Positions 24,148 through 64,000 of a DNA stretch of 64,000 bases are shown here, one piece after another. A program made the translations under genes and the position numbers. The notes under the pieces were generated by a model. It ran no database searches. It was not told the origin of the DNA and saw only the letters and a program-made list of their open reading frames with translations. Within the stretch, counting starts at the first letter, position 1. Each line of letters opens with the position of its first letter. Origin of the DNA: Candidatus Omnitrophota bacterium (GTDB lineage: Bacteria; Omnitrophota; Gorgyraeia; 2-01-FULL-45-10); contig JBAZKM010000004.1 of assembly GCA_041650805.1 (NCBI GenBank), forward strand, positions 41,636 through 105,635, in the 5' to 3' direction.

Positions 24148-24170
24148 ATAGCAGATTAATCCTATAATAA

Positions 24171-44059: not shown

Positions 44060-44069
44060 GGCGCATCAC

Positions 44070-46711: not shown

Positions 46712-46966
46712 AATATAGGACCTTACTTTGAGTTATCCACAACCCAATAACAACTTTTCAACACGAAAAAGGGGTTATCCACAAGTTACAAACAAGCATC
46801 GCAGCCGCGACGTTCAGTTATTATAGTAGATTATATAAAGTAGTGCAAGAGAAAAATGAGCCCGCCATTAAATGTATTGACTCAATTATTCTTTATGATA
46901 TAATTTAGCACACGCAATTTTGCTTTCGGGGGAAGACCGTCAGCTTAAAACAGGAAAGGGATGACC
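46712..46966. promoter_or_regulatory. oriC-like region with DnaA boxes
   Basis: Perfect TTATCCACA at 46733-46741 and 46775-46783, plus an AT-rich stretch at 46815-46860. Variant boxes TTATCAACA also occur in the dnaA-dnaN spacer (about 45215-45320). Confidence 0.55.
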
Positions 46967-47104
46967 ATGAAGTATACGCTAAGGGCGAAATCGAACCTCA
47001 GGAGAAAGAGAAAGCACGGGTTCAGGAAGAGGATGAAGGACCGCTGGGGCAGGGCCGTTCTGAAGAGGAGACGACAGAAAGGCCGGCACAAGCTCACCGT
47101 ATGA
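46967..47104 (+). CDS. rpmH: 50S ribosomal protein L34
   Basis: [45 protein letters not shown]. The ORF has no stop-free run long enough to appear in the ORF track. Confidence 0.85.
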
Positions 47105-47460
47105 TCTCCGACGGAGATTTTCCGAAAGAAGAACATCTTTTAAAGACAGGGGATTTCAGGAAGGTCTATAAGAACGGGTCGGCCCACAAGAGGGACCCCC
47201 TCTTTTTGTACCGCCTGCCGAACGCCGGGGAGACGATAAGGGTCGGTTTCTCGGTGAGCTCGCGCAGCATAAAACTGGCGACAAGACGGAACAGGATAAA
47301 GCGGCTTTTGCGCGAGGCATACCGGTTGAACAAGGCGAAGCTTAAAAAAGGGTTCGATATAGTCATAGTGGTGCGCAGGGATCCGTCCCCCGCATTGGCT
47401 TATAAAGATATAGAGAAGAAGTTCCTGGGCGTTGCCGGAGAGGCGGGTATATTGAAGTGA
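47101..47460 (+). CDS. rnpA: RNase P protein component
   Basis: ATGA overlap with rpmH. RNR motif region [23 protein letters not shown]. Confidence 0.85.
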
Positions 47461-47666
47461 AGAAGATAGCCATTTGCATGCTGAAGTTATATCGTAACTA
47501 TCTATCACCATTGAAGTTACAATGCTGCAGGTTTTACCCATCCTGTTCGGAATACGCCATCGGGGCCATAGAGAAACACGGCCTTTTATCCGGCGGCCTG
47601 AAGAGCATAAAGCGCATCCTGAGGTGCAACCCGTTCTCGCAAGGCGGGTACGATCCTGTCAAATAA
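47457..47666 (+). CDS. yidD: membrane protein insertion efficiency factor
   Basis: YRNYLSPL...[11 protein letters not shown] signature. Confidence 0.8.
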
Positions 47667-47682
47667 GAGAGAGTAATATATC

Positions 47683-49290
47683 ATGGAAAAACGGCTTGTC
47701 CTGGCAGTGGCATTATCGATATTGATCATCGTCTCATTCCAGTACTTCTTCGTGAAACCTCCTGTCCGCGCGCCGGATGTAAAGGGTGTGGTGAAGGAAG
47801 ATACGGCGCCCGTCCGGGCCGTTGTTAAGGAAGCGGCGGAACTGCCCCCATCCTTAGAGGCGCCCTCAAATATCGCTTTCGAAGAGGAAGAGCTTGAGGC
47901 AGATGCCGGGAAATATATCCTAACCTTCAGCAACGTCGGCGGTTCAATAAAAAAGATACGCCTGAAAGAGCATAAGAACCCGCATTCCACCGAAATGTTA
48001 GATTTGGTTGATCTAACAAATCCAAAGATGTATGTATTCTCTTTCTCCGATTCGACAGGCTCCCTCCCTTTCGACACAATAAAATATAATATCGAGAAGA
48101 GCGGTGACGATATAATCGCTTCTGCCAGGATAGGCGATATCGAAGTTGTGAAAAGATATGTATTACATAACTCTAAGCATATCATAGAGTTAGATATAGC
48201 AATAAAGAATATATCCGGCTCCTCGAGATCTTTCGGTTACAGAATAATAGGTGGTTCTGGGCTTAAAGAGCCGGATCCACAGGATGTAAGATTTATTGAA
48301 GTAAGATCCAAGGTGAACGGCATCATATTAAATTTTAAACATCCGAAGAAGGGGCGTATTACAAACCCCGGCATAGTGAGTTGGACCGCCATCAAGAATA
48401 AGTACTTCTGTATCGTGATGAAACCGTTCGGCGCGACGAAAGACCAGTTCTATAGCGAGGCGAAAGACGGTCTATTCAGCACAGGTATAGAATCGCCCTT
48501 GATCGAGATCCCATCGGGATCCGTTGTATCTCAGAAATTCATTCTTTATGCGGGGCCAAGCCAGATATCCCTGCTGAAGGAAGTGGGATTCGAATTTGCA
48601 GAGAGTGTAGATTATGGATTTTTCGGCGGGATAAGCAGGGCGCTCATAGCTGTGATGCGATTCTTCTATTTCCTTTTACATAGTTGGGGTCTATCCATAA
48701 TCCTCCTCTCCATATTTTTAAACCTTATACTATCCCCTCTCACATTTAAAAGTTTTAAATCTATGCAGAAGATGCAGGCCCTCCATCCGCAGATGGAGAA
48801 ATTGAAGGCACAGCATAAAGACAACCCGCAGAAATTGAATAAAGAGATGCTGGAGTTGTATAAAAAATATAAGATAAATCCTTTAAGCGGCTGTCTGCCG
48901 ATGCTCCTGCAGATGCCGATATTCATCGCCCTGTATAACGCGCTTATACGGTCTATAGAATTACGCGGGAGCACATTCTTATGGATAAGAGATCTCTCTC
49001 TGCCGGATGCGGTTAAGATCCCGATCACATTACCGATATTCGGTGACAGCATAAATATTCTGCCGCTCCTGATGGTCGGAGCCATGGTACTTCAACAGAA
49101 TATGTCTACAAAGCAGATGGGCAGCGCCGTTACCGATGAGCAGAAACAGCAACAGCGGATGATGTTGATAGTTATGCCTATCGTATTCGGGTTCATATTC
49201 TATAATATGCCATCCGGGCTCGTGTTATACTGGATAATAAATACGGTATTGACCGTTGTCGAGCAATACGCGATATTTAAGAATATATAA
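47683..49290 (+). CDS. yidC: membrane protein insertase YidC
   Basis: Periplasmic domain followed by the 5-TM core. Sits in the conserved rpmH-rnpA-yidD-yidC context. Confidence 0.85.
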   Translation: MEKRLVLAVALSILIIVSFQYFFVKPPVRAPDVKGVVKEDTAPVRAVVKEAAELPPSLEAPSNIAFEEEELEADAGKYILTFSNVGGSIKKIRLKEHKNPHSTEMLDLVDLTNPKMYVFSFSDSTGSLPFDTIKYNIEKSGDDIIASARIGDIEVVKRYVLHNSKHIIELDIAIKNISGSSRSFGYRIIGGSGLKEPDPQDVRFIEVRSKVNGIILNFKHPKKGRITNPGIVSWTAIKNKYFCIVMKPFGATKDQFYSEAKDGLFSTGIESPLIEIPSGSVVSQKFILYAGPSQISLLKEVGFEFAESVDYGFFGGISRALIAVMRFFYFLLHSWGLSIILLSIFLNLILSPLTFKSFKSMQKMQALHPQMEKLKAQHKDNPQKLNKEMLELYKKYKINPLSGCLPMLLQMPIFIALYNALIRSIELRGSTFLWIRDLSLPDAVKIPITLPIFGDSINILPLLMVGAMVLQQNMSTKQMGSAVTDEQKQQQRMMLIVMPIVFGFIFYNMPSGLVLYWIINTVLTVVEQYAIFKNI

Positions 49291-49305
49291 AAGATCGTCA
49301 AAAGC

Positions 49306-49334
49306 TTGACAAAAGACGGTTATTCAGGTATATT
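49306..49334 (+). promoter_or_regulatory. putative sigma70 promoter for parAB
   Basis: TTGACA (49306-49311), 17-nt spacer, TATATT (49329-49334). Confidence 0.4.
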
Positions 49335-49370
49335 TCTAGTAAAACGTTCCCCGTGGAACATTCCATAGAC

Positions 49371-50219
49371 ATGGCTAAAGTAATAGCGATATGTAATCAA
49401 AAAGGCGGTGTTGGAAAGACGACAACCGCAATAAATCTCGCCACTTGCCTTGCCTTATCAGGTATAAAGATACTGCTCATCGATATAGACCCACAGGGCA
49501 ACGCTACAAGCGGTTTAGGAATAGACAAGCATACTATAAAGACGAGCGTCTACGACCTCCTGGTGGACGAATCCGACCCAAAATCGGTCATTTTAAAGAC
49601 CGGCATAGATAACCTTTCCATCATACCGTCAAATTTGAATCTTACAGGCGCAGAGGTTGAGTTGGTTGGCATTATGGGTAGAGAGTATCGGCTCAAAAAG
49701 GCTCTTGCCGCAATAAGCCAGGATTACGATTTCATATTGATAGACTGTCCGCCATCGCTCGGTTTATTGACCATAAATGCTTTATCATCAGCATATTCCG
49801 TACTTATACCGATACAATGCGAATATTATGCACTTGAAGGGCTGAGTCAACTCTCTAATACTATAAATCTGGTAAGAGAAAACCTGAATCCTTCGCTGCT
49901 CATAGAAGGCGTTCTTCTTACGATGGCAGATTTCAGGACTAAGCTTACCAATGAAGTTATAAATGAAGTAAGGAACTTTTTTAAAGAGAAAGTATATAAC
50001 ACTGTGATACCCAGGAATATACGTTTAACAGAAGCGCCCGGTTTTGGGAAACCGATCGCCCTATATGATAAAAATTCGATCGGCGCTCAGAAGTACCAGG
50101 ATTTCACAAATGAATTTTTAGGAGTAAAGAAAGACGGCTCTGTTACTAGCCAGACAAATTTACATAACGATAGTATTGATAGTAACTTACAAAAAGTTGA
50201 GGAAGGAGAAGTTAAATGA
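49371..50219 (+). CDS. parA: chromosome partitioning ATPase ParA/Soj
   Basis: KVIAICNQKGGVGKTTTAINLA deviant Walker A. Confidence 0.85.
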   Translation: MAKVIAICNQKGGVGKTTTAINLATCLALSGIKILLIDIDPQGNATSGLGIDKHTIKTSVYDLLVDESDPKSVILKTGIDNLSIIPSNLNLTGAEVELVGIMGREYRLKKALAAISQDYDFILIDCPPSLGLLTINALSSAYSVLIPIQCEYYALEGLSQLSNTINLVRENLNPSLLIEGVLLTMADFRTKLTNEVINEVRNFFKEKVYNTVIPRNIRLTEAPGFGKPIALYDKNSIGAQKYQDFTNEFLGVKKDGSVTSQTNLHNDSIDSNLQKVEEGEVK

Positions 50220-51076
50220 CTCAAAGCCGAGCTTTAGGTAAAGGGTTGAGCGCACTCATCCCACAAAGGGAAGCGGCAGGTCCGGGTCCCCAGGAACAGG
50301 TGATGAACATCCCGATCTCACAGATAAGGACCAGTAAATATCAACCGCGCCTTGAGTTCAACCAGGAGAGGCTGAATGAACTGGTGAGCTCCATACGGGA
50401 GAAGGGAGTGGTGCAGCCGGTATTGGTCCGGCGTGTCGATAACGGCTATGAGTTGATCGCCGGAGAGCGGAGGCTGCGGGCCGTAAAGAATCTCGGGATC
50501 GCCAACATCCCCGCCATAGTCAGGGAGGTGGGGGAGATCGACATGCTAGAAATGGCGCTCATCGAGAACATACAGCGGGAAGGGCTGAACCCGATGGAGG
50601 AGGCCAACGCATTCCAGCGGTTCGCGACCGATTTTAATTTCACCCAGGAGAAGATAGCAAAGGTCCTCGGCAAGGACCGTTCTACCATTGCAAATACGCT
50701 TCGCCTTCTCGCCCTCCCGAAAAAGATACAGGAGTACATCTCCAAGAATATCCTGACGGCAGGACATGCGAAGGCGCTCCTTGCCCTCCCGACGGAGAGC
50801 GAGCAGCTGCGTGTCGCCACGCTCATAATAAAGAAAGCCCTCTCGGTACGGGAGACGGAACAACTGGTATCCAAAAGGGTCTCCGGCACCAAGAGGAGAC
50901 AGGCGCTCAAGGACCCCCACATAGGGGAGATCGAATCGCGCCTTCAGCAGGCGCTGGGGACCAGGGTGAAGATATTCCACGGGAAGAAGCGCGGGAGGAT
51001 ACAGATCGAATACTATTCTTACGAGGACCTTAACCGCCTCGTCGATATCTTTGCCCAGAAACCGGGCGCCAACTAA
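50216..51076 (+). CDS. parB: chromosome partitioning protein ParB/Spo0J
   Basis: GERR arginine patch (LIAGERRLRA), HTH, C-terminal dimerisation domain. Confidence 0.85.
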   Translation: MTQSRALGKGLSALIPQREAAGPGPQEQVMNIPISQIRTSKYQPRLEFNQERLNELVSSIREKGVVQPVLVRRVDNGYELIAGERRLRAVKNLGIANIPAIVREVGEIDMLEMALIENIQREGLNPMEEANAFQRFATDFNFTQEKIAKVLGKDRSTIANTLRLLALPKKIQEYISKNILTAGHAKALLALPTESEQLRVATLIIKKALSVRETEQLVSKRVSGTKRRQALKDPHIGEIESRLQQALGTRVKIFHGKKRGRIQIEYYSYEDLNRLVDIFAQKPGAN

Positions 51077-51139
51077 TCGGTTGACAGAGAGAGGGTTTTA
51101 TAGTTAAATAAGCATTCCGCATTCCACGGGGGAGGGTAA

Positions 51140-53953: not shown

Positions 53954-54624
53954 ACCCCGCATCCAGCAAAAGACCCAAATATATAGTGGTGACGGCCGGA
54001 CCGACCCGGGAGAAGATAGACCCGGTCCGTTTCATATCCAACTACTCGACGGGGACGTTCGGGTACGAGATCGCCGGGGAGGCGCGCCGCAGGGGCCATC
54101 GCGTAACGCTCGTGAGCGGGCCTGCATGCCTCAAGAGGCCGGCAGGCGTCAGGCGGATCATGGTCGAGAGCGCGACGGAGATGCGTTCTGCGCTCTCGGG
54201 GGAGTTCAAAAAGGCCGACTGCGTGATAATGGCGGCGGCCGTATCCGATTGGAGGCCGCTGTCGAGCCGGTCGAGAAAGATGAAGAGGGCCACCGGCAGG
54301 AAGATCGTGCTAGAGATGGCCGAGAACCCGGACATACTTGCAGGGCTCGGCCGTAAAAAAGGGAATAAGGTGCTGGTAGGGTTTGCCCTGGAGACCGAGC
54401 ATATGTATACAAATGCCCTGAAGAAATTAAGAGAGAAGAATCTCGACCTTATAGTCGCGAACAGGTGTTCAAAGGGCGGCACGGCTTTCGGTCCCGGGAA
54501 GACGGATATAGCGATCATCGACAGGCGGGGAGGCCGGACCTCTGCGCGCGGGAGATCGAAGCGCGAACTCGCCAAAATTATTCTTGACAAGGTTCTTGAC
54601 CGCACGTATAGTGGCAAATTATGA
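53950..54624 (+). CDS. coaB: phosphopantothenate--cysteine ligase, separate gene
   Basis: VVTAGPTREKIDPVRFISNYSTGTFG. GTGA overlap with the coaC stop. Confidence 0.7.
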   Translation: MNPASSKRPKYIVVTAGPTREKIDPVRFISNYSTGTFGYEIAGEARRRGHRVTLVSGPACLKRPAGVRRIMVESATEMRSALSGEFKKADCVIMAAAVSDWRPLSSRSRKMKRATGRKIVLEMAENPDILAGLGRKKGNKVLVGFALETEHMYTNALKKLREKNLDLIVANRCSKGGTAFGPGKTDIAIIDRRGGRTSARGRSKRELAKIILDKVLDRTYSGKL

Positions 54625-55061
54625 GGATGATGAAAAGTTCGCGGGGTTTCACTATAATAGAGGTGGTAGTCGTCGTCGCGGTATTCCTTGCGATCATCTC
54701 GATATTGGGACCGTTTGTGCGCATGGTCAAAGACCGGGCCAGCGCGATACAATGCGAAAATAATCTGAGGCGCCTCAGCATCGCGCTGCATACGTACGCC
54801 TCCGAACACGAAGATGCGTTCCCGCCGGATCTCGGGGCGCTCTACCCGGATTACGTCGGGGACCAGAAGGTATTCGACTGCGCGGCGAGCGGCTCTTTCG
54901 GCACACCCGAAAAGCCCGACTATTCGTACGCCCCCGGCCTGACGGAATCGTCGCTTCTCAAGACGCCGATCGTCGAGGACGCCGCCGGTAACCACGGCAG
55001 GAAAGGGAAGAATATCCTCAGGGTGGACGGTTCCGTAGAGTGGGCGGGTAGAAGATTTTAA
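54621..55061 (+). CDS. prepilin-type N-terminal domain pseudopilin with DUF1559 (H-X9-DG) domain
   Basis: GFTIIEVVVVVAVFLAIISIL methylation motif. HGRKGKNILRVDGSVEW C-terminal motif. Confidence 0.6.
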   Translation: MRMMKSSRGFTIIEVVVVVAVFLAIISILGPFVRMVKDRASAIQCENNLRRLSIALHTYASEHEDAFPPDLGALYPDYVGDQKVFDCAASGSFGTPEKPDYSYAPGLTESSLLKTPIVEDAAGNHGRKGKNILRVDGSVEWAGRRF

Positions 55062-55068
55062 CGTACGA

Positions 55069-55143
55069 GGCGGCTTAGCCAAGTGGTAAGGCAAAGGTCT
55101 GCAAAACCTTTATGCTCCGGTTCAAATCCGGAAGCCGCCTCCA
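55069..55143 (+). tRNA. tRNA-Cys (anticodon GCA)
   Basis: GGCGGCTTAGCCAAGTGGTAAGGCAAAGGTCTGCAAAACCTTTATGCTCCGGTTCAAATCCGGAAGCCGCCTCCA. Confidence 0.8.
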
Positions 55144-55168
55144 ATTCTTCAGTAACTTGGCATCATGT

Positions 55169-55245
55169 GGACGCGTAGCTCAGTTGGTTAGAGTGCTTCC
55201 TTGACATGGAAGAGGTCACAGGTTCGACCCCTGTCGCGTCCACCA
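55169..55245 (+). tRNA. tRNA-Val (anticodon GAC)
   Basis: GGACGCGTAGCTCAGTTGGTTAGAGTGCTTCCTTGACATGGAAGAGGTCACAGGTTCGACCCCTGTCGCGTCCACCA. Confidence 0.85.
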
Positions 55246-55620: not shown

Positions 55621-58600
55621 ATGTCAGACGCTAGATCTGGTAGTACTCCTAATGTGATCTTGAATAGACGCCCATTCAGGGTGACGATCGCCATTGTCAC
55701 CCTGTGGGCGTTTTTACTTAATATTGTAGCATACGATCTGGCCTGGGCTGCCGGAACGCCTACAGAGCTTACTAGCGTCGGCCCTGATAGAGCCGGCGGC
55801 CCGGGCGTTGTGAAGGAACTGGACGCTTCGACATTTTCATTACCCCAGTATCTCGGTTCTATCCGCGACTCCTGGTCCCCTAAACCCTATACCCTATACC
55901 CTATACCCAATACTATAATCCACATCCAAGACGCCCACTGCAACTATTATGCCCAGCACAAGATAAAAGAGATAATAGAGTATCTGAATAGAGAATACGG
56001 CGTAGATACCGTAAATCTCGAGGGTGGGGCGATGGGTTACGACCTGTCCCCGTTTACGGATATACGCGACAAAGATATCCGCGAAAAGGCGACCGACCAT
56101 TTCGTGAAAGAGGGTTTGGTGAACGGCGCAGAGTACTTCGCCATCAACAACCCGGAGAAGATAGCGCTTTGGGGGGTAGAGGATGCCCGGCTCTATGTCG
56201 ATAACCTCAATGTCTACAGGAGTTCAGCCGTCCGCAAGGCCGAGATCGAGAAGCATATTAAATCGCTCAACCACATCATCAACAACTTAAAACCGAAGAT
56301 ATATTCGAAAGAGCTTCTCGAGTTCGACCTGGCATATTCCTCATACAAGGCGCACAATTCGGAATTCAAAGATTACCTGTCATACCTCATAACGAAAGCA
56401 AAAGAGAGGGCCATCAACGTAAAACAATTTACAAATATCTACATCCTAAGCCGGACGCTCGGCGAGGAGGGGAAGGTCGATTTTAAAAGAGCGAATATCG
56501 AACGCGACGTTATGATAGATGCGCTCGGGAAACGGCTTTCGAAAAGCGCTCTCGAGGAACTTGTGGTGAAGACGGTTGAATTCAAGGCGGAGAGGATATC
56601 GCAAAAGGAATTTTACGCGTACCTCACAGGTAAGGCGAAAGTCGCCGGCTTGGACATGGACGGCTTCCCCGAACTCCGCAGGTATATTATCTATATCTCT
56701 ATGTACGAAGCGGTCGATAAGCCGAGCGTCATGGAAGAGATAGATGCCCTGGAAGCGAAGCTTCTGGAAGGCCTATATCGGAACGAGGAAGAGAGGACCT
56801 TAAGCCGTCTTTCGAAGAACCTGGCGTTATCGAAGAACATATTCGACATCTCGCTTACCAGGGACGATTACCGTTACTACAAGAAGAACGAGGCGTCGTT
56901 CGATATGCGTAACTACGCCGTGTTCATCGAGCGGGAAGCGCCTGCGCGCGGTATCACGGCAAAGCTCGACAACGATATAGCCCACCTCGACAACTATAGG
57001 CGGGAGATGGCGAAGTTCTACGAGTATTCATTCAAGCGCGATGAGGCGTTCATACGGAATATTAAGTTAGGGGGTATAGGGTATAGGGTATCGGGTATAG
57101 TAACCCGAAAACCAGGGGCCGCGATCCTCGTGACCGGTGGGTTCCATTCCGAGAACCTCGCAGAACTATTCAAGAAGAACGATATCGCCTACGTATCGAT
57201 CATGCCGAACTTCAGATCCGGCGACGAGTATGAGTGCCCGTACTTCAAGATCCTTTCAGGCGAGAAGAATATCAGGATAAAAGAGTCATTACCGGCGGTC
57301 CTCACCGGCATGCTCCCGGTACCGGATCAGCTGAATCCGGCGGTGATGAGAGAGCTCGAAAAAACCCAAAAACCGTTGGGCGCGGGAAGGATGAGGATGC
57401 AGGGGGAGCATGCATTTACACAGTTTTTGACGCGCATAGAACCGCTCCTTCTTATGTCTGAGGCCCTGTTGCCCATAATAATAGACAGGGCCATACAAAG
57501 ATATGAGAGGACGAAAGAGCCGCAGGTTATCAATATAGGGATCGTGGGGGCAGGATATGGCCAGGAACCCGTATCCGTGGCGATCGCCCTTGATAGAAAG
57601 ATAAGAAGTATGCTTGAGGACCGGCGTCTTCCCGGGGATTCTGTGAAGCTTGCAGTCCATATCATGAGCAGGCCGTCCCCCATGCTCGATAAGCTTAGAG
57701 ATAATGGAATAAGGTATCCGGCAGATTCGATCGCGCGACAGATCGCTCTCGGCAATATCTCAGAGACCGAACGGGACAGGTATTTTGAAGATACGGGAAC
57801 AGGGTCAAGGCGCACCCAGGCCCTGAACGATATCATGAAGTTTTATGAAGTCGATCTTTTGGACGATCCGCAGGCAGAGGTGCCGCCTCTCGATGCGCTA
57901 TTGGTCCACAATATCCTGCAGTATCTGATGCCGGGTGATATGCAAAGTGCGCAAGCGGCATTCGGATATCTGGGTTCAATGGTAAAGCCGGGCGGGATCA
58001 TTTCAGTCACGTCCCCGGAAGGAACCGCCGACAGATACGTTAAGGCAGCGTATGATGAGATGTTTAGCGGCCGCGGCGGATATGAGCAAGCGAAATTTGA
58101 AGGGTTACCCGTAGAGACAGTATTTTTTGTGAAGAAGACACCGCCCGCGCCGCAGGCCGGGTTCGGTCGCCTTGAGGTGATCTCAGGCGTAGCGGTGCTG
58201 ACGGCAGCGGCAGCGACTTTCCACGCCGCAGGCATCGCCGCGGCGCTCGTTGTCGGGATCGCCGGCGCGCTCGCAGCAGCGCTCTTATTCAGGTATCTCA
58301 ACCGGGCAACGTCGGAAGAAAAGACGGCCACACCGACACCTCATGAGGCCATGATAAGAGAATTATGGGGAAGCGTTCCGCGACCGATCGGTGATGCGGA
58401 ATTGCGAAAAGCCATCATAGAAAGATCTTTTTCTGGTGAAGCAGCCATGCGATGGGGTGCTGACACGTTGTCGGACCTTATCGATTTTAATAAATCGAGG
58501 GCAGGGACGCTATATATTACGGCTATCATAGAAGCCAGTTTACCCAAGTTAGGGATAATGATACCGGACAATTTTATGTACGGCCCTGCAATGACACCGG

Positions 58601-61600
58601 AAGAGATAAGATCGGCAAAAGAACGCGCAGAACTCCAGGCCATCGAGAATAGGATATCTCGTTTTACCGATGAATTAAGCGCTCTATTTGCAGACCTTGA
58701 TCGCATCCGCGGGCTTATCGAAAAAGACCTGATAACGGCGGAGCAGTTAAAAACAGCCACAAGATTATCCGGCGGAAATATGAAAATAGCCTGTGAGACG
58801 TTTGCCGCATTGGAAGGTTCGATAAGAAGCAGACAGGATATAGAAAATTTAATAAGATCGGCCGAGCGCAATAACAACATATTTATCATAAATGCGGCCA
58901 ATTTTGGTATTAATGACACCTTCAGCTGGCTTGCCCGCCATAGAGAATTTATCAATCGTTATGGGACTAACGGTATAGCTGTTTTAGGGCAGGTGCTGCG
59001 CTCCGGCCGCGTTCTTTTCGGTTCAAATCAATCTGAGAAGATCTGTGATTTTCTGGAAAAAAATGCAAGATATGTCGAATTATACGGGATGGAATATTTA
59101 TGTACTGCGGTAGCCGTATTAAATGATGAGCAGCTTCAGAATATGAGCAGCCCTCGTCGCATTAATATCTTCGAACCTACCCTCAACATCGGCAAGGTTA
59201 TCACAGAGGATAGCATGCTTAACGGTGCAAGGGTATTCTTCGAAGACCTCGTGGCAGCAAATAATGAAAGCGATAGATTGAAGCCAGAGGCCCAATTTAA
59301 CGAGTCTATAATAAGAACGATTAATGAAAATACCATGTCGCGGTACGGTCTTGACAAGATGCTTATCCTAAGCAGATCCCACAACTTAACAGCAGTGGCT
59401 ATTTATTTTACGAGAATAAGGCCTGTGGTAGATAAGGTCGGCATACAGGCGTTTATCGACGCAGTAGAAAATAAGGGCGAGATATCCGCAGATCTCGTGG
59501 CGGCTATCCCGGAACTTCTCAGGGTAGATCTGACCTTTGCCGGCGCGGGCCATCAAAAGGCTCAAGAATATGCCAACTATATATTGGGCACGATAGCGAA
59601 AAGGTCTACCGATGCTCTGCAGGCGCTTGTAGAAGCCACTACAGATACAGATGATGATATAAAAAGAGGCGCATATTCAGTTTTGGATACGGTTATGCCA
59701 AATCTCGGCGCTACTCTCAGATTTCACGGCGACATAGGGCCGGTAGGGCGCAAGATCGTCGTAGAATTTCTGGCCATGTCGGACCTTGAAAGATTAAGCC
59801 CATACAGGTTATATCTGTACATAGGGCGATTGGCCGAGAACGGGAATACTATAGACCGTATAAAGAACGCGGATAGACGCAGGCAGGCGATAAATAATGT
59901 CATAAACAAGGCCGACAGGGATTATGGAAACTTCACAAAAAGCGTGTACTATGGAGGAAAGACCGGGGATTATTCAATGTATGTCGGCCTTCTCAGCATG
60001 CTTTCCGATGAGGATTTTGAGAAAGACGTTCATGATATAGCCGCGGCCCTAAACGTCACCGCAAAAGACAGGAGTATAACTGATACATTGAGCGAGATCG
60101 ATGGAAAAGTCATCACACAACCTGTGAACGTTCAATATGTAAGCGCGTTCGATTTCGAAACAAAAAAGACGGAACTGGCGCTGCCGGACGATTTAGATAT
60201 CGAATTCAAAAATATGATCAGCACGATTTTCGGGTCAGCTGGAGAAGCGGATATTGACACCATCCTGGCGAGGATCACCGCCGTCAAGGCGAGTGTTGAT
60301 GCCCTGGAAGGAAGGGATAAAGCGGAAGTGACCGCGTTTTTCAACGGTAATAATGTACCTGATAACCTCCGGGCGCAGTGGAATACGGAAGATCCTAAAA
60401 GACACGAAACCGCTAAAGTAAATATCAAAAATTTTCTATACACCAGGATGGATATTTCAGACGAAGAGAAGACGGTATTGTTCCTGAAAGTTTTTGAACA
60501 CATGGGCGCGGAATTATTGCGAAAATACATAACTCCCGGGGCCGAGCTTTCCCCGGATGAGAGGAACCTTATCTTTTCGATGCTGAGAGAGGCGGACAGA
60601 CATCTTGCTGATACCATGCAGGAAATGGGGCTTGGCGCGCTGGCCGACAACCTAAAGAAGAAACCCGAATGGAAACTGATGAAGACATTACAGGGTAAGA
60701 TAAAGACGACAGTTGACGGTAATGTAAGGTCTGGCAAAAAAATAGAGCTGGTTTTCAGGGCAAAGAACCTTCTTACCCTCTATCAGGGGGCCTACTCGGG
60801 GACGTGTTTCGGAGACCGCCCTTACGATATAGCGCGACCGGACCTTTTTGTCGTCACTATATTAAGTAACGGAGAGCTTGCGGGTTCTGTCCTGTTCAAT
60901 ATACAAGGCAATAAATTGATAATGCTCGGTTTTGACCCGTCAGAAGCGCTGATGTGCGGCCTTGATGACACAAAGAGAAATGAGCTCGTAGACCATATCA
61001 TGGCCGAGATATTCAGTTTCACCAAAGCGCGTATCGTGGATCAGGACGGCAAAATTACGGCAGAGAACGATTATGAGTTATTGATCACTACAGAAGCAGG
61101 AGGCCTATCGAACAGGGACAAGGTGCAGGATTATATAATAAGTGAATACGTAACCGGGGGTAAGGTAAGAGTGGACCGGAGGACCTATCATCCACTATAT
61201 CAATACAGCGTTACTTCGGCGCAAAAGGCGAAGACAAGAAATGTAAAACCGAAAATGATCAAAACCACGCCTTCACCCGAGGCAGGATTCGGCGGTCTTG
61301 AAGTTATGACAGGCATTGCGGTATTGGGGGCGGCAGTGGCCGCCTTCCACGCCGCAGGCATCGCCGCGGCGCTCGCCGTCGGGATAGGCGGCGCGCTCGC
61401 AGCAGTGCTCTTGTTCAGATACCTCAGCCGCAATATTTCAGTGTCTCCGGCCGTTACCGCATCTACTAAGGGGACATCCCAGAGCAGTATGACCTGGGAC
61501 CCCATCGGATATTTTGACCTTGTAAAGCGTTTTGGAGGGCATGATTATGGCGCCGATCCGGCAGCGGACAAGATGCTGCTTGAACAGACAGGGAAGTGGT

Positions 61601-64000
61601 TCGGGACTAACGAGCCCGACTGGGGCGTCTCATTAAACGAAATGCGGGGCAAGAAAGGCGTTTATATCGGCGTCGCATACGGAGGGCAGAACCTTTCGCG
61701 GCTTTGCTACGGCGATTTTGAACAGGCCCTTATCGTAGACAGCAACCCCTTCGTAACCGAAATATTCATGCCTATAAGGGCGGTCCTTATTGCCATGGCC
61801 AGGTCTCGCGCGGAATATCTCGGTTTTCTTGCCGGCGTACGATTAAATGAGACCGAACTGGAAATGCTCAGGGATGCCGACCTTTCTCATATCGAATCCT
61901 ATATCTCAGGCAGGGCATTCACGGAAAAGGACAGGACGGCCGCGTTCAGAAACGAACTCTGGGGCAGGATACAGGGGATATTCCCTTCTCATTTAGCCGG
62001 ACAGGCAAGCACATTCTGGGAACTTTATGCGCCGGGAGGCTTCGGTCTCTCCTCCATGGTGAGAAATATGGATCGCGGCGACAGCTGGCTGTCAAGCGAA
62101 AGGAATTTCGCCAGGATACGAAAGATGACCTCGGAGGGCAGAATCTACGGTGTAACGGCCGATTGGGCGGACGCAGCGTCGATAAGCCCGATAGCGCGCT
62201 ATATGTCGGATCACGGATTGAAGGCGTCCGTTATTTATGTTTCCAATATCATGGAACGGATCGACGAGATAGAAGACAGGACTAAAAGAGAAAAGACCGC
62301 TAACGCGTTCAGGGGCAATATCCTCTCGATGCCCCGTACAGATGATGCCGTCCTTTTGTCTGTTTCTGTTTCCGAAGGTACCGGTCTCGGCAGGCCTTAT
62401 AAAACAATGACCAGGAGCATAGAGGAAGAGGCAAAGAGGACGGTCTTTGACAGGAGCCGGGGAGATAATTATGCCGTTATTGCCCCTGTTCCGTTCTCCG
62501 CGCAGGCAGGTTTCGGCATGGTCGAGGTCATGACCGGCGTCACGATACTGGGAGCGGCAGCGGCCGCCTTCCACGCCGCAGGCATCGCCGCGGCGCTCGC
62601 CGTCGGGATTGGCGGCACGATCGCAATCATACTCTTCTTAAAATACGCGGGGCGCGCGAAGGCAGGAGAGAAGGTGATCCTATTGGTGCCCGAACCTGCG
62701 CCGTCAAAAGTGTATATGCGCAACGCGGCCATGAATATCCTTTTCCTGGCTGTATTGGCGGTCATCCCCACGGTCCTGAGCCTGCTCGAGCCGAACCTGC
62801 CCATGCTTTCGCTGGTGCTGGACATGTCCCGCGAAACCGGGTTGTCGAAGGTGGTTTTCTACCTGTTAGGGGTAGCAGGCATTACAAAGTTGGTTGCCAA
62901 TACGGCCATGGTGATAATGCGGGACGGATCGGTCAGGGCAATCAGGTCGCTCAGGTCTTTTGGGCGTTTCAACTCACGCGATGTCATTAAGCTCCTCGCG
63001 GTCCTCATCGTCTTTATCGGGGCCGCGGAGTGGAAAGCGGTGAGTTTCATGGCCCGCTCAGATGTCACTACAATAGACGCGCACGGCGCCAGGATCAGGG
63101 TATATTTCGACCCGGCCAGGTCGGTACGGGACGAGGTGGGCAGTTATGTCGGGCGCTATCTGAATAACCTGCCGGCAGGGCACACCGAAGGGCTTGAGCG
63201 CATATCCGTCCTGCCCTATGATGCGCTCGGGGCGTTCGAAACGGCCAACGATTCGGCCGGGACGTATCGTTTTTTAACCGACACGGTCAGGATCAGGGAG
63301 GGCAGGGTCGAAGACGGCAGCGTCGTCTATCATGAGATAGGCCATCACGTCAACGCCGCCGTATTGGGCGCAGGGCAGAAGATGAAGTGGAATGCGCTGC
63401 ACAGGGCAAGCGGGGATAGTGACGCCGGTTACGTCTCAGCATACGCCAAAACTTCCGCATCGGAGGATTTTGCCGAGACGTATGCGGCATACTGCACGGG
63501 CTCGCTCCATTGGTTGGCAGATACGGACGGTATCCTTGCCGAAAAGGTGCTATTCGTCACCCGCCTTTTTATGGAGCAGGGCGCAGGCGGCGCCAGGTAC
63601 CTTGTCTATTTCAGCGATGATAACGAAATAACAGCGTCTACCAAGCATCGTCTCAGGATAGAAGAGAAGTATATGGGGGTCGATTATCTTCGGGAAAGAG
63701 TGGGGGCGCTCAGATGGTTTTTGGAAAAAGACCGCGGCCTGAGAGATATCATGAGTAACGATGATGCGGATACATTCAGAAAGTGGCTCGAGGAGAGACA
63801 TAGCGGGACCGGAATAAATGTCAACAGTACTTATCTTGTCCCGCTTTCCATGGATGACCTATGCAGTATGCGGAGTAACCTTGATTATGCCTCGGAATAC
63901 GTCGCCAGAACCGCGGGCAGGGCGCGGGACGAAAGGATCCAGAGGCAGGCATCTGCCCTTGTCGGCAGCATAGCGGGCTACAAAAAGAAGCTGGGTATAT
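55621..64000 (+). CDS. giant multi-domain membrane protein, N-terminal 2793 codons (continues past window end)
   Basis: Manually translated with no stop from ATG 55621 (RBS GAAGGAAA; in-frame TAA at 55510) to 64000. Signal anchor at the N-terminus. TraB/Tiki-like (IIHIQDAH...VTGGFHSEN), CheR-like (IGIVGAGYGQEP...LVHNILQYL...VKPGGII) and ATLF-like zincin (YHEIGHHV...SEDFAETYAAY) blocks. Three conserved two-helix hydrophobic units (predicted TM hairpins) plus further TM helices near 62.7-63.0 kb. Confidence 0.7.
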   Translation, partial: MSDARSGSTPNVILNRRPFRVTIAIVTLWAFLLNIVAYDLAWAAGTPTELTSVGPDRAGGPGVVKELDASTFSLPQYLGSIRDSWSPKPYTLYPIPNTIIHIQDAHCNYYAQHKIKEIIEYLNREYGVDTVNLEGGAMGYDLSPFTDIRDKDIREKATDHFVKEGLVNGAEYFAINNPEKIALWGVEDARLYVDNLNVYRSSAVRKAEIEKHIKSLNHIINNLKPKIYSKELLEFDLAYSSYKAHNSEFKDYLSYLITKAKERAINVKQFTNIYILSRTLGEEGKVDFKRANIERDVMIDALGKRLSKSALEELVVKTVEFKAERISQKEFYAYLTGKAKVAGLDMDGFPELRRYIIYISMYEAVDKPSVMEEIDALEAKLLEGLYRNEEERTLSRLSKNLALSKNIFDISLTRDDYRYYKKNEASFDMRNYAVFIEREAPARGITAKLDNDIAHLDNYRREMAKFYEYSFKRDEAFIRNIKLGGIGYRVSGIVTRKPGAAILVTGGFHSENLAELFKKNDIAYVSIMPNFRSGDEYECPYFKILSGEKNIRIKESLPAVLTGMLPVPDQLNPAVMRELEKTQKPLGAGRMRMQGEHAFTQFLTRIEPLLLMSEALLPIIIDRAIQRYERTKEPQVINIGIVGAGYGQEPVSVAIALDRKIRSMLEDRRLPGDSVKLAVHIMSRPSPMLDKLRDNGIRYPADSIARQIALGNISETERDRYFEDTGTGSRRTQALNDIMKFYEVDLLDDPQAEVPPLDALLVHNILQYLMPGDMQSAQAAFGYLGSMVKPGGIISVTSPEGTADRYVKAAYDEMFSGRGGYEQAKFEGLPVETVFFVKKTPPAPQAGFGRLEVISGVAVLTAAAATFHAAGIAAALVVGIAGALAAALLFRYLNRATSEEKTATPTPHEAMIRELWGSVPRPIGDAELRKAIIERSFSGEAAMRWGADTLSDLIDFNKSRAGTLYITAIIEASLPKLGIMIPDNFMYGPAMTPEEIRSAKERAELQAIENRISRFTDELSALFADLDRIRGLIEKDLITAEQLKTATRLSGGNMKIACETFAALEGSIRSRQDIENLIRSAERNNNIFIINAANFGINDTFSWLARHREFINRYGTNGIAVLGQVLRSGRVLFGSNQSEKICDFLEKNARYVELYGMEYLCTAVAVLNDEQLQNMSSPRRINIFEPTLNIGKVITEDSMLNGARVFFEDLVAANNESDRLKPEAQFNESIIRTINENTMSRYGLDKMLILSRSHNLTAVAIYFTRIRPVVDKVGIQAFIDAVENKGEISADLVAAIPELLRVDLTFAGAGHQKAQEYANYILGTIAKRSTDALQALVEATTDTDDDIKRGAYSVLDTVMPNLGATLRFHGDIGPVGRKIVVEFLAMSDLERLSPYRLYLYIGRLAENGNTIDRIKNADRRRQAINNVINKADRDYGNFTKSVYYGGKTGDYSMYVGLLSMLSDEDFEKDVHDIAAALNVTAKDRSITDTLSEIDGKVITQPVNVQYVSAFDFETKKTELALPDDLDIEFKNMISTIFGSAGEADIDTILARITAVKASVDALEGRDKAEVTAFFNGNNVPDNLRAQWNTEDPKRHETAKVNIKNFLYTRMDISDEEKTVLFLKVFEHMGAELLRKYITPGAELSPDERNLIFSMLREADRHLADTMQEMGLGALADNLKKKPEWKLMKTLQGKIKTTVDGNVRSGKKIELVFRAKNLLTLYQGAYSGTCFGDRPYDIARPDLFVVTILSNGELAGSVLFNIQGNKLIMLGFDPSEALMCGLDDTKRNELVDHIMAEIFSFTKARIVDQDGKITAENDYELLITTEAGGLSNRDKVQDYIISEYVTGGKVRVDRRTYHPLYQYSVTSAQKAKTRNVKPKMIKTTPSPEAGFGGLEVMTGIAVLGAAVAAFHAAGIAAALAVGIGGALAAVLLFRYLSRNISVSPAVTASTKGTSQSSMTWDPIGYFDLVKRFGGHDYGADPAADKMLLEQTGKWFGTNEPDWGVSLNEMRGKKGVYIGVAYGGQNLSRLCYGDFEQALIVDSNPFVTEIFMPIRAVLIAMARSRAEYLGFLAGVRLNETELEMLRDADLSHIESYISGRAFTEKDRTAAFRNELWGRIQGIFPSHLAGQASTFWELYAPGGFGLSSMVRNMDRGDSWLSSERNFARIRKMTSEGRIYGVTADWADAASISPIARYMSDHGLKASVIYVSNIMERIDEIEDRTKREKTANAFRGNILSMPRTDDAVLLSVSVSEGTGLGRPYKTMTRSIEEEAKRTVFDRSRGDNYAVIAPVPFSAQAGFGMVEVMTGVTILGAAAAAFHAAGIAAALAVGIGGTIAIILFLKYAGRAKAGEKVILLVPEPAPSKVYMRNAAMNILFLAVLAVIPTVLSLLEPNLPMLSLVLDMSRETGLSKVVFYLLGVAGITKLVANTAMVIMRDGSVRAIRSLRSFGRFNSRDVIKLLAVLIVFIGAAEWKAVSFMARSDVTTIDAHGARIRVYFDPARSVRDEVGSYVGRYLNNLPAGHTEGLERISVLPYDALGAFETANDSAGTYRFLTDTVRIREGRVEDGSVVYHEIGHHVNAAVLGAGQKMKWNALHRASGDSDAGYVSAYAKTSASEDFAETYAAYCTGSLHWLADTDGILAEKVLFVTRLFMEQGAGGARYLVYFSDDNEITASTKHRLRIEEKYMGVDYLRERVGALRWFLEKDRGLRDIMSNDDADTFRKWLEERHSGTGINVNSTYLVPLSMDDLCSMRSNLDYASEYVARTAGRARDERIQRQASALVGSIAGYKKKLGI
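55885..55913. repeat. heptamer array (CCTATAC) x4 inside the giant ORF, inverted relative to 57074-57100
   Basis: ccctata ccctata ccctata cccaatac encodes PYTLYPIPNT. Confidence 0.6.
57074..57100. repeat. heptamer array (GTATNGG) x4 inside the giant ORF
   Basis: gtatagg gtatagg gtatcgg gtatag encodes GIGYRVSGI. The C in the third unit avoids an in-frame TAG. Confidence 0.6.
58150..58300 (+). repeat. intragenic repeat R1 encoding the hydrophobic hairpin unit AGFGRLEVISGVAVLTAAAATFHAAGIAAALVVGIAGALAAALLFRYL
   Basis: Shares an identical 31-nt core (ttccacgccgcaggcatcgccgcggcgctcg) with R2 and R3. Confidence 0.7.
61282..61431 (+). repeat. intragenic repeat R2 (AGFGGLEVMTGIAVLGAAVAAFHAAGIAAALAVGIGGALAAVLLFRYL)
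   Basis: Same 31-nt core; about 85% nt identity overall to R1 and R3. Confidence 0.7.
62504..62649 (+). repeat. intragenic repeat R3 (AGFGMVEVMTGVTILGAAAAAFHAAGIAAALAVGIGGTIAIILFLKY)
   Basis: Same 31-nt core. Followed by additional TM helices. Confidence 0.7.

What the first reader, a model, noticed from the sequence alone, without database searches (positions are those of the whole stretch)
58150..62649. Three near-identical intragenic repeats encoding the hydrophobic hairpin linkers
R1 (58150-58300), R2 (61282-61431) and R3 (62504-62649) share a perfect 31-nt core (ttccacgccgcaggcatcgccgcggcgctcg) and about 85% identity over about 150 nt. The surrounding domains are unrelated. This suggests modular assembly by duplication of a linker cassette, or ongoing gene conversion. 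Such repeats are recombination hot spots that could delete or shuffle whole enzymatic modules. They also created the long spurious antisense ORFs seen in the ORF track (57843-58331, 61200-61505, 62469-62825).
Basis: seen in the sequence. Interest (0 to 1): 0.6.

Follow-up and report, generated by a model that had tools for sequence, protein, structure and literature searches.

The report
Repeated membrane-anchor cassettes in giant gene
A 55-codon cassette encoding a double-length hydrophobic membrane anchor recurs three times in the window (six times in the whole gene) between unrelated modules of a 6,413-residue Omnitrophota protein; the copies are real, old and partly homogenised by gene conversion, and four of the six start with a pilin-like cleavage motif that gives a testable guess at where such giant proteins might be cut.

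Summary
Three in-frame direct repeats of about 171 nt share a perfect 31-nt core. Nucleotide identity is 69-79% over 151 nt, not about 85%, and the flanks are at random level (21-30%).

All three lie in one + strand ORF starting at 55621, which runs off the window. The full gene has 6,413 codons (NCBI MFA5146512.1, Candidatus Omnitrophota MAG) and carries six copies of graded divergence.

Each cassette encodes P-rich linker, AGFGx[LV]EV, about 44 hydrophobic residues (helix, FHAAG, helix), then [RK]Y..R. This is most likely a two-helix membrane hairpin separating unrelated modules.

- **Age:** synonymous sites in the 5' half are saturated, so the duplication is old and the motif is under protein-level selection.
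- **Core:** 12 core codons carry no synonymous change (Fisher p=0.001), which points to recent short-tract gene conversion.
- **Antisense ORFs:** they are a gene-wide codon-phase effect, not caused by the repeats.

A new lead: the cassette start fits the prepilin (GFxxxE) cleavage motif. R3 passes TIGR02532; 0 of 148 control TM starts do. Internal cleavage is unproven, about 15% likely.

The gene belongs to a family of at least 289 Omnitrophota proteins with a Tiki/TraB-like N-terminal domain.

The parts
55621..63999 (+). Giant ORF, truncated by the window end. The complete gene has 6,413 codons and would end at window-equivalent 74862.
   Evidence: Stop-free frame from 55513 to beyond 63999. 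Identical to L001 10001-18379, with the full gene at L001 10001-29242. NCBI MFA5146512.1 'FHA domain-containing protein [Candidatus Omnitrophota bacterium]'.
55621..55758 (+). N-terminal signal-peptide-like segment: basic NRRPFR, a 24-aa hydrophobic stretch, then AWA|AG. Conserved across the family.
   Evidence: That it is a Sec signal is inferred from the sequence pattern only.
55798..57270 (+). Family-defining N-terminal domain with a Tiki/TraB/EreA/ChaN-like alpha/beta core and a large helical insertion. Invariant H106, E134, R154, H509.
57745..58002 (+). CheR-type SAM methyltransferase-like segment, the last part of module 1.
   Evidence: PF01739, 30.2 bits against cutoff 27.
58135..58305 (+). 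Cassette R1: KTPPAPQAG|FGRLEV..FHAAG..LLFRYLNR. AGFGxLEV is at 58156-58179 and the perfect core at 58219-58249.
58318..61245 (+). Module 2, about 976 aa, with no detectable homologue or domain.
   Evidence: No Pfam or NCBIfam hit apart from chance-level ones. The 5.8-billion-protein search found nothing at E<=0.001.
61261..61431 (+). Cassette R2: KTTPSPEAG|FGGLEV..FHAAG..LLFRYLSR. Core at 61345-61375.
61600..62367 (+). Module 3: DUF7790 (related to the LIC_10091-type lipoprotein family).
   Evidence: PF25046, 55.6 bits. NF047518 weak. Shared with P0001, P0006, P0017 and P0081, where it is not flanked by hydrophobic stretches.
62485..62655 (+). Cassette R3: PVPFSAQAG|FGMVEV..FHAAG..ILFLKYAGR. 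Core at 62569-62599.
   Evidence: TIGR02532 at 17.3-20.2 bits against cutoff 16.3.
62710..63054 (+). Three to four further, non-repeated hydrophobic segments at the start of module 4.
   Evidence: Hydropathy scan.
63331..63516 (+). HEIGHH zincin motif (63331-63348) and a Peptidase_Mx-like segment in module 4.
   Evidence: Scores are below the curated cutoffs.
54621..55061 (+). Separate upstream gene for a genuine pilin-like protein, MRMMKSSRG|FTIIEV. It shows that the organism processes class III signals. It is context, not part of the giant gene.
   Evidence: PF07963 24.3 bits plus DUF1559. TIGR02532 21.8 bits. Translation.

Best explanation
R1-R3 are three of six in-frame paralogous copies of a cassette of about 55 codons. 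Each encodes a proline-rich spacer, a conserved AGFGx[LV]EV start, and about 44 hydrophobic Ala/Gly-rich residues, read as helix 1, an FHAAG turn and helix 2, closed by [RK]-Y-x-x-R.

**Function.** The most likely function is a two-helix transmembrane hairpin. It staples successive, unrelated modules of a giant modular Omnitrophota protein to the membrane and returns the chain to the same side.

**History.** The cassette spread by old intragenic duplication. Its key residues are held by selection on the protein. A central tract of 31-48 nt in R1-R3 was made identical recently by short-tract gene conversion between the copies.

**Status of each step.**
- Shown: the repeats, their reading frame, the six copies, the unrelated flanks, and the heterogeneity of synonymous divergence.
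- Inferred: hairpin topology, gene conversion as the cause of the identical core, and the tethering role.
For: **Repeats and boundaries.**

**One ORF.** Two independent gene calls agree on a single ORF.

**Six copies of graded divergence.** Scores are 121, 121, 116, 40.5, 25.8 and 12.7 bits. The cassettes are the only similarity found between the modules on either side of a cassette.

**Old duplication with protein-level selection.** Of the 19 invariant-residue degenerate codons outside the core, 12 differ synonymously. These include A-2, G-1, G+2, E+5 and V+6. R4 keeps AGFGHLEV, again with some different codons, and G+9, A+18 and G+24 are invariant in all six copies.

**Conversion.** All 10 tested core codons (12 of 13 codons from +20 to +32) are identical at synonymous sites (Fisher p=0.0012). 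The longest identical runs are 31, 31 and 48 nt (permutation p<=0.002). R1 resembles R2 in the 3' half, and R2 resembles R3 in the centre.

**Hairpin.**
- A 42-44-residue hydrophobic stretch is twice a bilayer span (bilayer thickness from own knowledge).
- E+5 is paired with [RK]+44/46 in R1-R4 but with a K+5/D+45 charge swap in R5.
- In the family, 57 such 36-56-aa stretches occur in 35 of 121 proteins. Both flanks are mildly K/R-enriched and D/E-depleted.

**Context.** Omnitrophota giant proteins are known to carry many TM helices between enzyme-like domains. P0008 and P0077 also reuse a linker cassette twice.
Against: - AlphaFold2 on the isolated cassette, with a 3-sequence alignment, predicts one continuous helix over residues 13-69 at pLDDT 77, not a hairpin.
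- Topology does not close. The N-terminal signal-like segment predicts that module 1 is exported, whereas the positive-inside rule puts both ends of the cassette in the cytoplasm. Module types are also mixed: CheR and FHA are cytoplasmic types, while DUF7790 and the HExxH segment are lipoprotein-like.
- Without orthologues, gene conversion cannot be separated from selection on the nucleotide sequence of the core.
- The tethering model does not by itself explain why AGFGx[LV]EV is so strictly kept.
Confidence: 0.6

Rival explanations
1. Internal class III (prepilin-type) signals. The AG|FGx[LV]E start of R1-R4 is recognised at the cytoplasmic face by the cell's prepilin peptidase. The giant protein would then be a polyprotein cut before each cassette. 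Each downstream module would start with a (possibly N-methylated) Phe and a hydrophobic helix, either anchoring it or feeding it to a type IV filament machine.
For: - R3 matches TIGR02532 (IV_pilin_GFxxxE) at 17.3, 19.0 and 20.2 bits against cutoff 16.3. The genuine pilin of the same window scores 21.8.
- On Pfam N_methyl, R3 scores 18.2. A bona fide pilin-like ORF at 7954-8451 scores 19.3.
- 0 of 148 TM-segment starts from other family members hit the model at E<=0.01.
- A relaxed G/A-F-xxx-E plus hydrophobic-tail pattern occurs only 6 times in the six-frame translation of all 64 kb: the 3 cassettes and 3 ORF N-termini.
- G-1, F+1 and E+5 are kept through synonymous turnover and also in the diverged R4.
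- The codon 11 positions before F is GTG, ATG, ATT or CTG in R1-R4, as if derived from the start of an 11-residue leader, M(K/I)KTxPxP(Q/E)AG.
- Both cassette flanks fit a cytoplasmic location, the face where prepilin peptidases cut (enzyme topology from own knowledge).
- N-terminal-type signals do sit at module starts in this family. Internal Tat signals pass TIGR01409 in this protein (25.1 bits) and in P0013, P0015 and P0026.
- Type IV pilus genes are common in Omnitrophota. Cleavage of the giant proteins is suspected, but no sites are known.
Against: - R1, R2 and R4 give no reportable HMM hit, and the Pfam gathering score is not reached.
- The site is internal, preceded by 400-1,000 residues instead of a 5-30-residue leader. 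A literature search for 'prepilin peptidase' together with 'polyprotein' returned only two unrelated papers.
- R5 and R6 have lost G-F and E.
- No other family member has the motif.
- The profile search of 1.84 billion proteins finds the cassette only in this protein.
- E+5 can be explained instead by a salt bridge to +44.
- A second hydrophobic helix follows, and no pilin domain is present.
- If module 1 is exported, the R1 site faces the wrong side of the membrane.
Confidence: 0.15
2. Fusion relic. The cassette descends from the 5' end of a once separate gene for a small membrane or pilin-like protein (leader, GFxxxE, helix) that was captured and then copied as a linker. The motif is a fossil that now serves only as a helix cap or hairpin clasp. 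This reading concerns origin and is compatible with the best explanation.
For: - Leader-like 11 residues with an ATG-like codon at -11.
- Other modules keep complete N-terminal signals including the Met, such as MSRRDFLK at aa 4742. That Tat-bearing module is shared with P0026.
- The family shuffles modules freely between conserved N- and C-terminal domains.
Against: - M, V, I and L at -11 may simply be conservative hydrophobic substitutions.
- No stand-alone relative of the cassette exists among 1.84 billion representatives.
- A fossil would not be expected to keep A-G-F-G-x-[LV]-E-V through saturated synonymous change.
Confidence: 0.25
3. The perfect core is kept by selection on the nucleic acid, as an RNA structure, a protein-binding or recombination site, or a translational pause signal, rather than by gene conversion.
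For: - No synonymous change in 12 codons that use mixed Ala codons (GCC, GCA, GCG), so codon preference does not explain it.
- The core contains the 10-nt palindrome CGCCGCGGCG (read from the sequence).
- R2 alone folds better than shuffles, z = -3.1.
Against: - Predicted RNA structures differ among the three copies, and R1 and R3 are at z = -1.2 and -1.4.
- There are no other copies in the 64-kb window or the further 10 kb of L001.
- There are none in 185,579 species genomes or in the JGI metagenomes.
- R4-R6 lack the core.
- Promoter-like sites are at chance level (5 found against 6.5 expected). The 9 terminator-like sites against 5.2±1.9 expected include only weak 5-pair stems in R1 and R2, absent from R3.
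Confidence: 0.05
4. Chance similarity of low-complexity Ala/Gly-rich hydrophobic coding sequence, or an assembly artefact.
For: The cassettes are GC-rich (66-69% against 51% for the gene) and compositionally simple.
Against: - 0 matches are expected in 100 shuffles.
- Between-protein hydrophobic segments almost never reach these alignment scores (99.9th percentile 1.65 per residue against 2.9-3.5 here).
- The identical tracts (31-48 nt) are far shorter than the assembler's k (contig name k141), so they cannot have misled the assembly. That step is inference.
- The NCBI record and the JGI/ENA record carry the same product apart from the start codon chosen (6,400 against 6,413 aa), each on a contig of about 204 kb.
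Confidence: 0.01

Closest known systems
Giant, TM-helix-rich multi-domain proteins of Candidatus Omnitrophota (Seymour et al. 2023, PMC10066038; West-Roberts et al. 2023, bioRxiv 10.1101/2023.11.21.568195; 2026 preprint 10.64898/2026.06.07.730766)
   Same: Same phylum. Both are very long ORFs with enzyme-like domains of unrelated families separated by many predicted TM helices, an N-terminal signal-like segment, suspected but unmapped proteolytic processing, and unknown function.
   Different: - This gene has 6,413 codons, below the 20-kb or 30,000-aa classes those papers focus on.
- It has none of the SecA-DEAD, C39 or S8 domains described for 'Archaeovorins'.
- Term searches of the three papers (transmembrane, pilin, N-terminal, cleav, linker, repeat) returned no mention of a Tiki/TraB-like N-terminal family domain, reuse of one linker cassette, or a pilin-like motif at linker starts. 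The papers were not read in full.
Class III signal peptides, i.e. the type IV prepilin N-terminal cleavage/methylation motif (TIGR02532, PF07963)
   Same: G at -1, F at +1 and E at +5, then about 20 hydrophobic residues. R3 scores like the genome's own pilins.
   Different: The motif is internal rather than N-terminal and has no short basic leader. It is followed by a second hydrophobic helix and non-pilin modules. Three of the four motif-bearing copies fail the HMM.
Bilobed hydrophobic domains of chlamydial Inc proteins and similar two-helix hairpin anchors (own knowledge)
   Same: A 40-60-residue hydrophobic stretch split by a very short turn, which places both flanking parts on the same side of a membrane.
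   Different: There is no sequence relationship: the cassette profile hits only its own protein. Here the hairpin is used repeatedly inside one chain as a spacer between modules.
[not shown]
   Different: There are no RTX repeats and no cysteine protease domain. Modules are separated by membrane segments. Processing is not shown.
Concerted evolution of intragenic repeats in bacterial surface proteins, e.g. the alpha C/Rib family, where identical repeats recombine to give deletion variants (own knowledge)
   Same: In-frame repeats within one gene, homogenised tracts, and potential for in-frame deletion.
   Different: The repeats here are short (171 nt), dispersed 1.2-3.1 kb apart and only 65-79% identical outside a 31-48-nt tract, so recombination should be rare. 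No variants were observed.

Membership tests
Type IV prepilin-like N-terminal cleavage/methylation domain (class III signal; TIGR02532 / PF07963) | Gly at -1, Phe (or Met) at +1 and Glu at +5, followed by about 20 hydrophobic residues | tested here: met
   AG|FG(R/G/M)(L/V)EV plus a hydrophobic stretch in R1-R3, and AG|FGHLEV in R4. R5 and R6 have lost it.
Type IV prepilin-like N-terminal cleavage/methylation domain (class III signal; TIGR02532 / PF07963) | Profile score at or above the curated cutoff | tested here: inconclusive
   R3 scores 17.3, 19.0 and 20.2 bits on TIGR02532 (cutoff 16.3) but 18.2 on PF07963 (cutoff 21.2). R1, R2 and R4 give no reportable hit. Control: 0 of 148 other TM starts hit.
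Type IV prepilin-like N-terminal cleavage/methylation domain (class III signal; TIGR02532 / PF07963) | Position at the protein N-terminus behind a short basic leader | tested here: not met
   The sites are at residues 847, 1889, 2297 and 3429 of a 6,413-aa ORF. No Shine-Dalgarno-like sequence precedes the -11 codons, although this genome rarely shows one.
Type IV prepilin-like N-terminal cleavage/methylation domain (class III signal; TIGR02532 / PF07963) | Cleavage and N-methylation by a prepilin peptidase (PilD/GspO family) | not testable with these tools
   Needs proteomics or a PilD-dependent cleavage assay. The presence of a peptidase is only inferred from genuine pilin genes in the window.
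Type IV prepilin-like N-terminal cleavage/methylation domain (class III signal; TIGR02532 / PF07963) | A pilin-type globular domain after the N-terminal helix | tested here: not met
   A second hydrophobic helix follows, then unrelated modules: an orphan module, DUF7790 and an HExxH segment.
Unnamed Omnitrophota family of modular giant proteins with a conserved N-terminal domain (at least 289 members found here) | Signal-like N-terminus followed by a domain of about 500 aa with the invariant motifs QDAH, NLEGG and TGGFH | tested here: met
   45-61% identity to 120 listed relatives over the first ~20% of the query only. Invariant columns.
Unnamed Omnitrophota family of modular giant proteins with a conserved N-terminal domain (at least 289 members found here) | Variable enzyme-like modules and hydrophobic segments, then a shared C-terminal domain of about 250 aa | tested here: met
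   Precomputed Pfam domains differ between relatives. Hydrophobic segments are listed. The C-terminal 6150-6400 region matches about 35 relatives; it lies outside the window, in L001.
'Archaeovorin'-type giant proteins (West-Roberts et al. 2023) | SecA-DEAD/preprotein-binding domains, C39 or S8 peptidase domains, glycosyltransferase/TPR content, and lengths of tens of thousands of residues | tested here: not met
   Pfam finds only CheR, DUF7790, a weak Peptidase_Mx hit and FHA. Length is 6,413 aa. Features were taken from passages of the paper.
Tiki/TraB/EreA/ChaN superfamily (N-terminal domain only) | Shared alpha/beta fold | tested here: met
   [not shown]
Tiki/TraB/EreA/ChaN superfamily (N-terminal domain only) | Conserved His/Glu/His catalytic set in equivalent positions | tested here: inconclusive
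   H106, E134, R154 and H509 are invariant in 28 sequences. Their equivalence to catalytic residues of EreB, Tiki or RRSP was not checked by superposition. No sequence-profile hit.
Intragenic repeats under concerted evolution (gene conversion) | Identity clustered in tracts, with synonymous divergence heterogeneous along the repeat | tested here: met
   Synonymous identity is 10 of 10 in the core against 7 of 19 outside it (p=0.0012). Longest identical runs have permutation p<=0.002. Pairwise identity is mosaic.

The most novel reading that the evidence does not exclude
The cassettes are internal prepilin-type (class III) signal sequences. The 6,413-residue product would then be a polyprotein that the cell's prepilin peptidase cuts at AG|FGxLE on the cytoplasmic face. 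This would release at least five pieces, four of which would start with a pilin-like N-terminal helix. Together with the internal Tat signals found in the same protein family, this would mean that Omnitrophota giant genes encode strings of separately targeted proteins, and it would give the first concrete cleavage sites for them.
Probability: 0.15. Interest if true: 0.85.

Novelty: new variant of a known kind. Interest (0 to 1): 0.5.

Why it matters
Giant, TM-rich, multi-enzyme ORFs are a hallmark of Omnitrophota, yet nobody knows how they are arranged in the membrane or whether and where they are cut.

This gene offers a small, tractable case. One recognisable cassette marks most of the module boundaries mapped here (five of its six copies). 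Its conserved residues (AGFGxLEV, G+9, G+24, E+5/R+44) can be mutated, and its pilin-like start predicts exact cleavage positions that a proteomic search can confirm or dismiss.

The work also defines a large family, with at least 289 members. It has a Tiki/TraB-like N-terminal domain, a shared C-terminal domain and exchangeable modules, some of which keep complete Tat signals. This frames the giant proteins as module carriers.

If the cassettes are only anchors, the finding is a tidy example of linker reuse and short-tract gene conversion and is of modest interest.

Tried and rejected
- **HMM of the three peptides against 120 relatives:** no hit.
- **Profile against 1.84 billion representatives:** only the protein itself, plus three spurious repeat proteins.
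- **Exact 31-mer in 185,579 species genomes and in JGI metagenomes:** 0 hits. No orthologue or deletion variant could therefore be examined.
- **Module 2 against 5.8 billion proteins:** nothing.
- **Strict and relaxed GFxxxE-plus-TM patterns in relatives:** none strict. One weak case, P0056 KKA|FTRIEA, did not hit the HMM.
- **Shared RNA structure in the core:** rejected.
- **Internal promoters and terminators:** promoter-like sites at chance; terminator-like sites 9 against 5.2±1.9 expected, only weak stems.
- **Internal translation starts:** no Shine-Dalgarno-like sequence, but the genome's real genes often lack one too, so this is uninformative.
- **Sortase, exosortase or PGF-CTERM-type sorting signals:** considered because of the motif, TM segment and basic tail. 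No NCBIfam or Pfam hit.
- **AlphaFold2 of the isolated cassette:** gave one long helix, which neither proves nor excludes a hairpin in a membrane.
- **Look-up of P0121 by exact sequence:** failed. The JGI/ENA version P0125 worked.
- **Self-BLAST of whole proteins:** returned only the trivial self match and was replaced by segment-against-segment BLAST.
- **Literature search for prepilin peptidase plus polyprotein:** no precedent.
Full report
**1. The observation**

No further match with up to three mismatches exists, and none is expected in shuffles. The repeat finder gives one family of three copies of 175 nt.

A codon-registered comparison places the similarity between codon -8 and codon +48, counted from the Gly of the AG|F motif. 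That corresponds to 58135-58305, 61261-61431 and 62485-62655. Outside these limits identity drops at once to 20-33%. Control blocks 300 and 600 nt away are 21-30% identical.

Identity inside is 79, 69 and 78% over 151 nt, and 77, 65 and 73% over 171 nt. The spacings of 3,126 and 1,224 nt are multiples of three.

**2. The gene**

All copies lie in one stop-free + frame from 55513 to the window end, with the ATG at 55621. A profile of the three peptides, searched against 1.84 billion representative proteins, found a single true hit: a 6,400-residue protein that is the complete product of this gene.

It is NCBI MFA5146512.1, 'FHA domain-containing protein [Candidatus Omnitrophota bacterium]'. A 6,413-residue JGI/ENA version uses the ATG. 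The encoding contig was retrieved as L001, and its sequence is identical to the window over the shared 8,379 nt.

The window spans the replication origin of the chromosome. It carries dnaA, gyrB and gyrA on the - strand and yidC, parA and parB on the + strand, with the cumulative GC-skew minimum near 46 kb. The giant gene follows a pilin-like gene and two tRNA genes.

**3. Anatomy of the cassette**

Each copy encodes four elements:
- a proline-rich spacer;
- the motif A-G-F-G-x-[LV]-E-V;
- about 44 hydrophobic, Ala/Gly-rich residues with a central F-H-A-A-G;
- a closing [FL]-[RK]-Y-x-x-R.

The complete protein has six copies, scoring 121, 121, 116, 40.5, 25.8 and 12.7 bits against the R1-R3 profile. 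R4 keeps AGFGHLEV, while R5 and R6 have lost G-F and E. G+9, A+18 and G+24 are invariant in all six.

The cassettes are the only similarity found between the modules on either side of a cassette. Those modules are:
- a family-specific N-terminal domain plus a CheR-like segment;
- a 976-residue orphan module;
- DUF7790;
- a membrane-embedded HExxH module;
- beyond the window, FHA domains and others.

**4. History read from the codons**

Outside the core, 19 degenerate codons encode residues invariant in R1-R3, and 12 of them differ synonymously. Those that differ include A-2, G-1, G+2, E+5 and V+6. The duplication is therefore old, and the motif is held by selection on the protein.

In contrast, 12 of the 13 codons from +20 to +32 are identical in all three copies, although they use mixed alanine codons. 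Fisher's test on the tested codons gives p=0.0012. The longest identical runs are 31, 31 and 48 nt, exceeding codon-position-preserving permutations (p<=0.002). Similarity is also mosaic: R1 resembles R2 in the 3' half, and R2 resembles R3 in the centre.

This pattern is what short-tract gene conversion produces. Several checks argue against a nucleotide-level function:
- The three copies fold differently as RNA.
- The core occurs nowhere else in 74 kb of this genome, nor in two large public collections.
- R4-R6 lack it.
- Promoter-like sites are at chance level, and the few extra terminator-like sites are weak 5-pair stems.

**5. What the cassette does**

A hydrophobic stretch of 42-44 residues is twice what a bilayer needs (own knowledge). 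The usual reading is two helices joined by a tight turn, which returns the chain to the same side.

Support for this reading:
- E+5 is accompanied by [RK] at +44/46 in R1-R4. R5 has the opposite pair, K+5 and D+45, as expected if the two ends of the stretch touch. This is a single charge swap and therefore weak.
- In 121 family members there are 57 stretches of 36-56 residues in 35 proteins. Both flanks are mildly enriched in K/R and depleted in D/E, as expected for hairpins whose ends face the cytoplasm.

Points against, or left open:
- AlphaFold2 on the isolated cassette gives one continuous helix.
- The N-terminal signal-like segment predicts an exported first module, which does not fit cytoplasmic hairpin ends.
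- Module types are mixed: CheR and FHA are cytoplasmic types, while DUF7790 and the HExxH segment are lipoprotein-like.

I therefore treat 'membrane hairpin that tethers and spaces modules' as the best-supported but unproven function.

**6. The pilin-like start**

Scanning the peptides against NCBIfam and Pfam gave an unexpected result.
- R3 matches the prepilin cleavage/methylation model TIGR02532 at 17.3-20.2 bits (cutoff 16.3). It matches Pfam N_methyl at 18.2 bits (cutoff 21.2).
- The genuine pilin encoded just upstream scores 21.8 bits. Another pilin-like ORF in the window scores 19.3 on Pfam.
- None of 148 control TM-segment starts from other family members hits the model.
- A relaxed pattern finds only the three cassettes and three ORF N-termini in the six-frame translation of the whole window.
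- The residues that define the motif (G-1, F+1, E+5) are exactly those conserved through synonymous turnover, and they are also kept in R4.
- The codon eleven positions upstream is GTG, ATG, ATT or CTG in R1-R4, as if it descended from the start codon of an 11-residue leader.

Against a working cleavage site:
- R1, R2 and R4 do not reach the model's reporting threshold.
- The position is internal.
- R5 and R6 lost the motif.
- No relative has it.
- No precedent turned up in the literature search.

I rate real prepilin-peptidase processing at about 15%. A fossil origin from a pilin-like gene start is somewhat more likely.

Internal Tat-type signals, complete with their Met, pass TIGR01409 in this protein and in three relatives. 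N-terminal-type signals at module starts are therefore a feature of the family.

**7. The family**

At least 289 Omnitrophota proteins of 1,600-4,500 residues share only the first ~550 residues with this gene, at 45-61% identity. About 35 of 120 also share the last ~250 residues. Between these ends lie unrelated domains such as HATPase, kinases, M48/ABC1, PEP-utilising, GNAT and methyltransferases.

Two relatives, P0008 and P0077, also use one linker cassette twice. Linker reuse is therefore uncommon in the family but not unique to this gene.

**8. The antisense ORFs**

That phase is open along the whole gene, with 69 stops in 2,793 codons. It also yields ORFs of 204 and 201 residues where there is no cassette. 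They are a by-product of codon composition.

**9. Verdict**

- **Observation:** confirmed, with corrected numbers.
- **Interpretation:** partly supported.
- **Class:** this is a new variant within a known kind, the TM-rich giant proteins of Omnitrophota. It adds a private six-copy linker cassette, evidence for short-tract gene conversion, and a pilin-like motif that yields a testable hypothesis for processing sites.

Noticed in passing
window 19700-24200: Low-GC island (GC 0.32-0.33 against 0.52-0.57 around it). It holds a 955-aa gene (20284-23151, - strand) with TPR repeats, a GreA/GreB C-terminal domain and the PIN domain of the TPR-GreAB-C-PIN system (PF20698). It is probably horizontally acquired.
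   Followed up: no
window 6142-8920 (- strand): Cluster of pilin-like genes. ORF 7954-8451 reads MIKRGQGKG|FTMVEAV (N_methyl 19.3 bits), ORF 7413-7943 reads MRNKSA|FSTIEVL, and ORF 6142-7416 carries DUF4900.
   Followed up: partly
window 54621-55245: Pilin-like gene with N_methyl and DUF1559 (PVC-type pseudopilin), followed by tRNA-Cys (55069-55143) and tRNA-Val (55169-55245), directly upstream of the giant gene.
   Followed up: partly
window 44000-51100: The window spans the chromosomal replication origin. dnaA lies at 45335-46711 (-), with gyrB and gyrA further upstream on the - strand. yidC, parA and parB lie on the + strand. The cumulative GC-skew minimum is near 46 kb.
   Followed up: no
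L001 24224 onward (window-equivalent ~69844), aa 4742 of the giant protein: A complete internal twin-arginine signal, MSRRDFLKMGAKAAVVALAAATL (TIGR01409 25.1 bits, cutoff 16.7), sits deep inside the same ORF. Similar internal Tat signals occur in relatives P0013, P0015 and P0026, and the Tat-bearing module is shared with P0026.
   Followed up: partly
[not shown]
   Followed up: partly
L001 28450-29242 (C-terminal ~250 aa of the giant protein): A C-terminal domain conserved in about 35 of 120 relatives, always at the extreme C-terminus. No known family.
   Followed up: no
window 58318-61245: Module 2 (976 aa) has no detectable homologue in a 5.8-billion-protein collection.
   Followed up: partly
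L001, giant protein aa ~4,400-5,500: At least three copies of a module starting PMGGGMSP(E/Q), some followed by ...VDGLNDEGYVAMVR. Seen by eye in the protein sequence.
   Followed up: no
relatives P0008 (aa 1599-1709 and 2217-2325) and P0077 (aa 685-867 and 1141-1322): Two other family members also contain one hydrophobic linker cassette twice (68% and 65% identity) with no other similarity found in the regions compared around them. Only the regions around the copies were compared.
   Followed up: partly
window 1426-2430 (-) and 4282-5277 (+): Two divergently placed LpxD-like hexapeptide acyltransferase paralogues.
   Followed up: no
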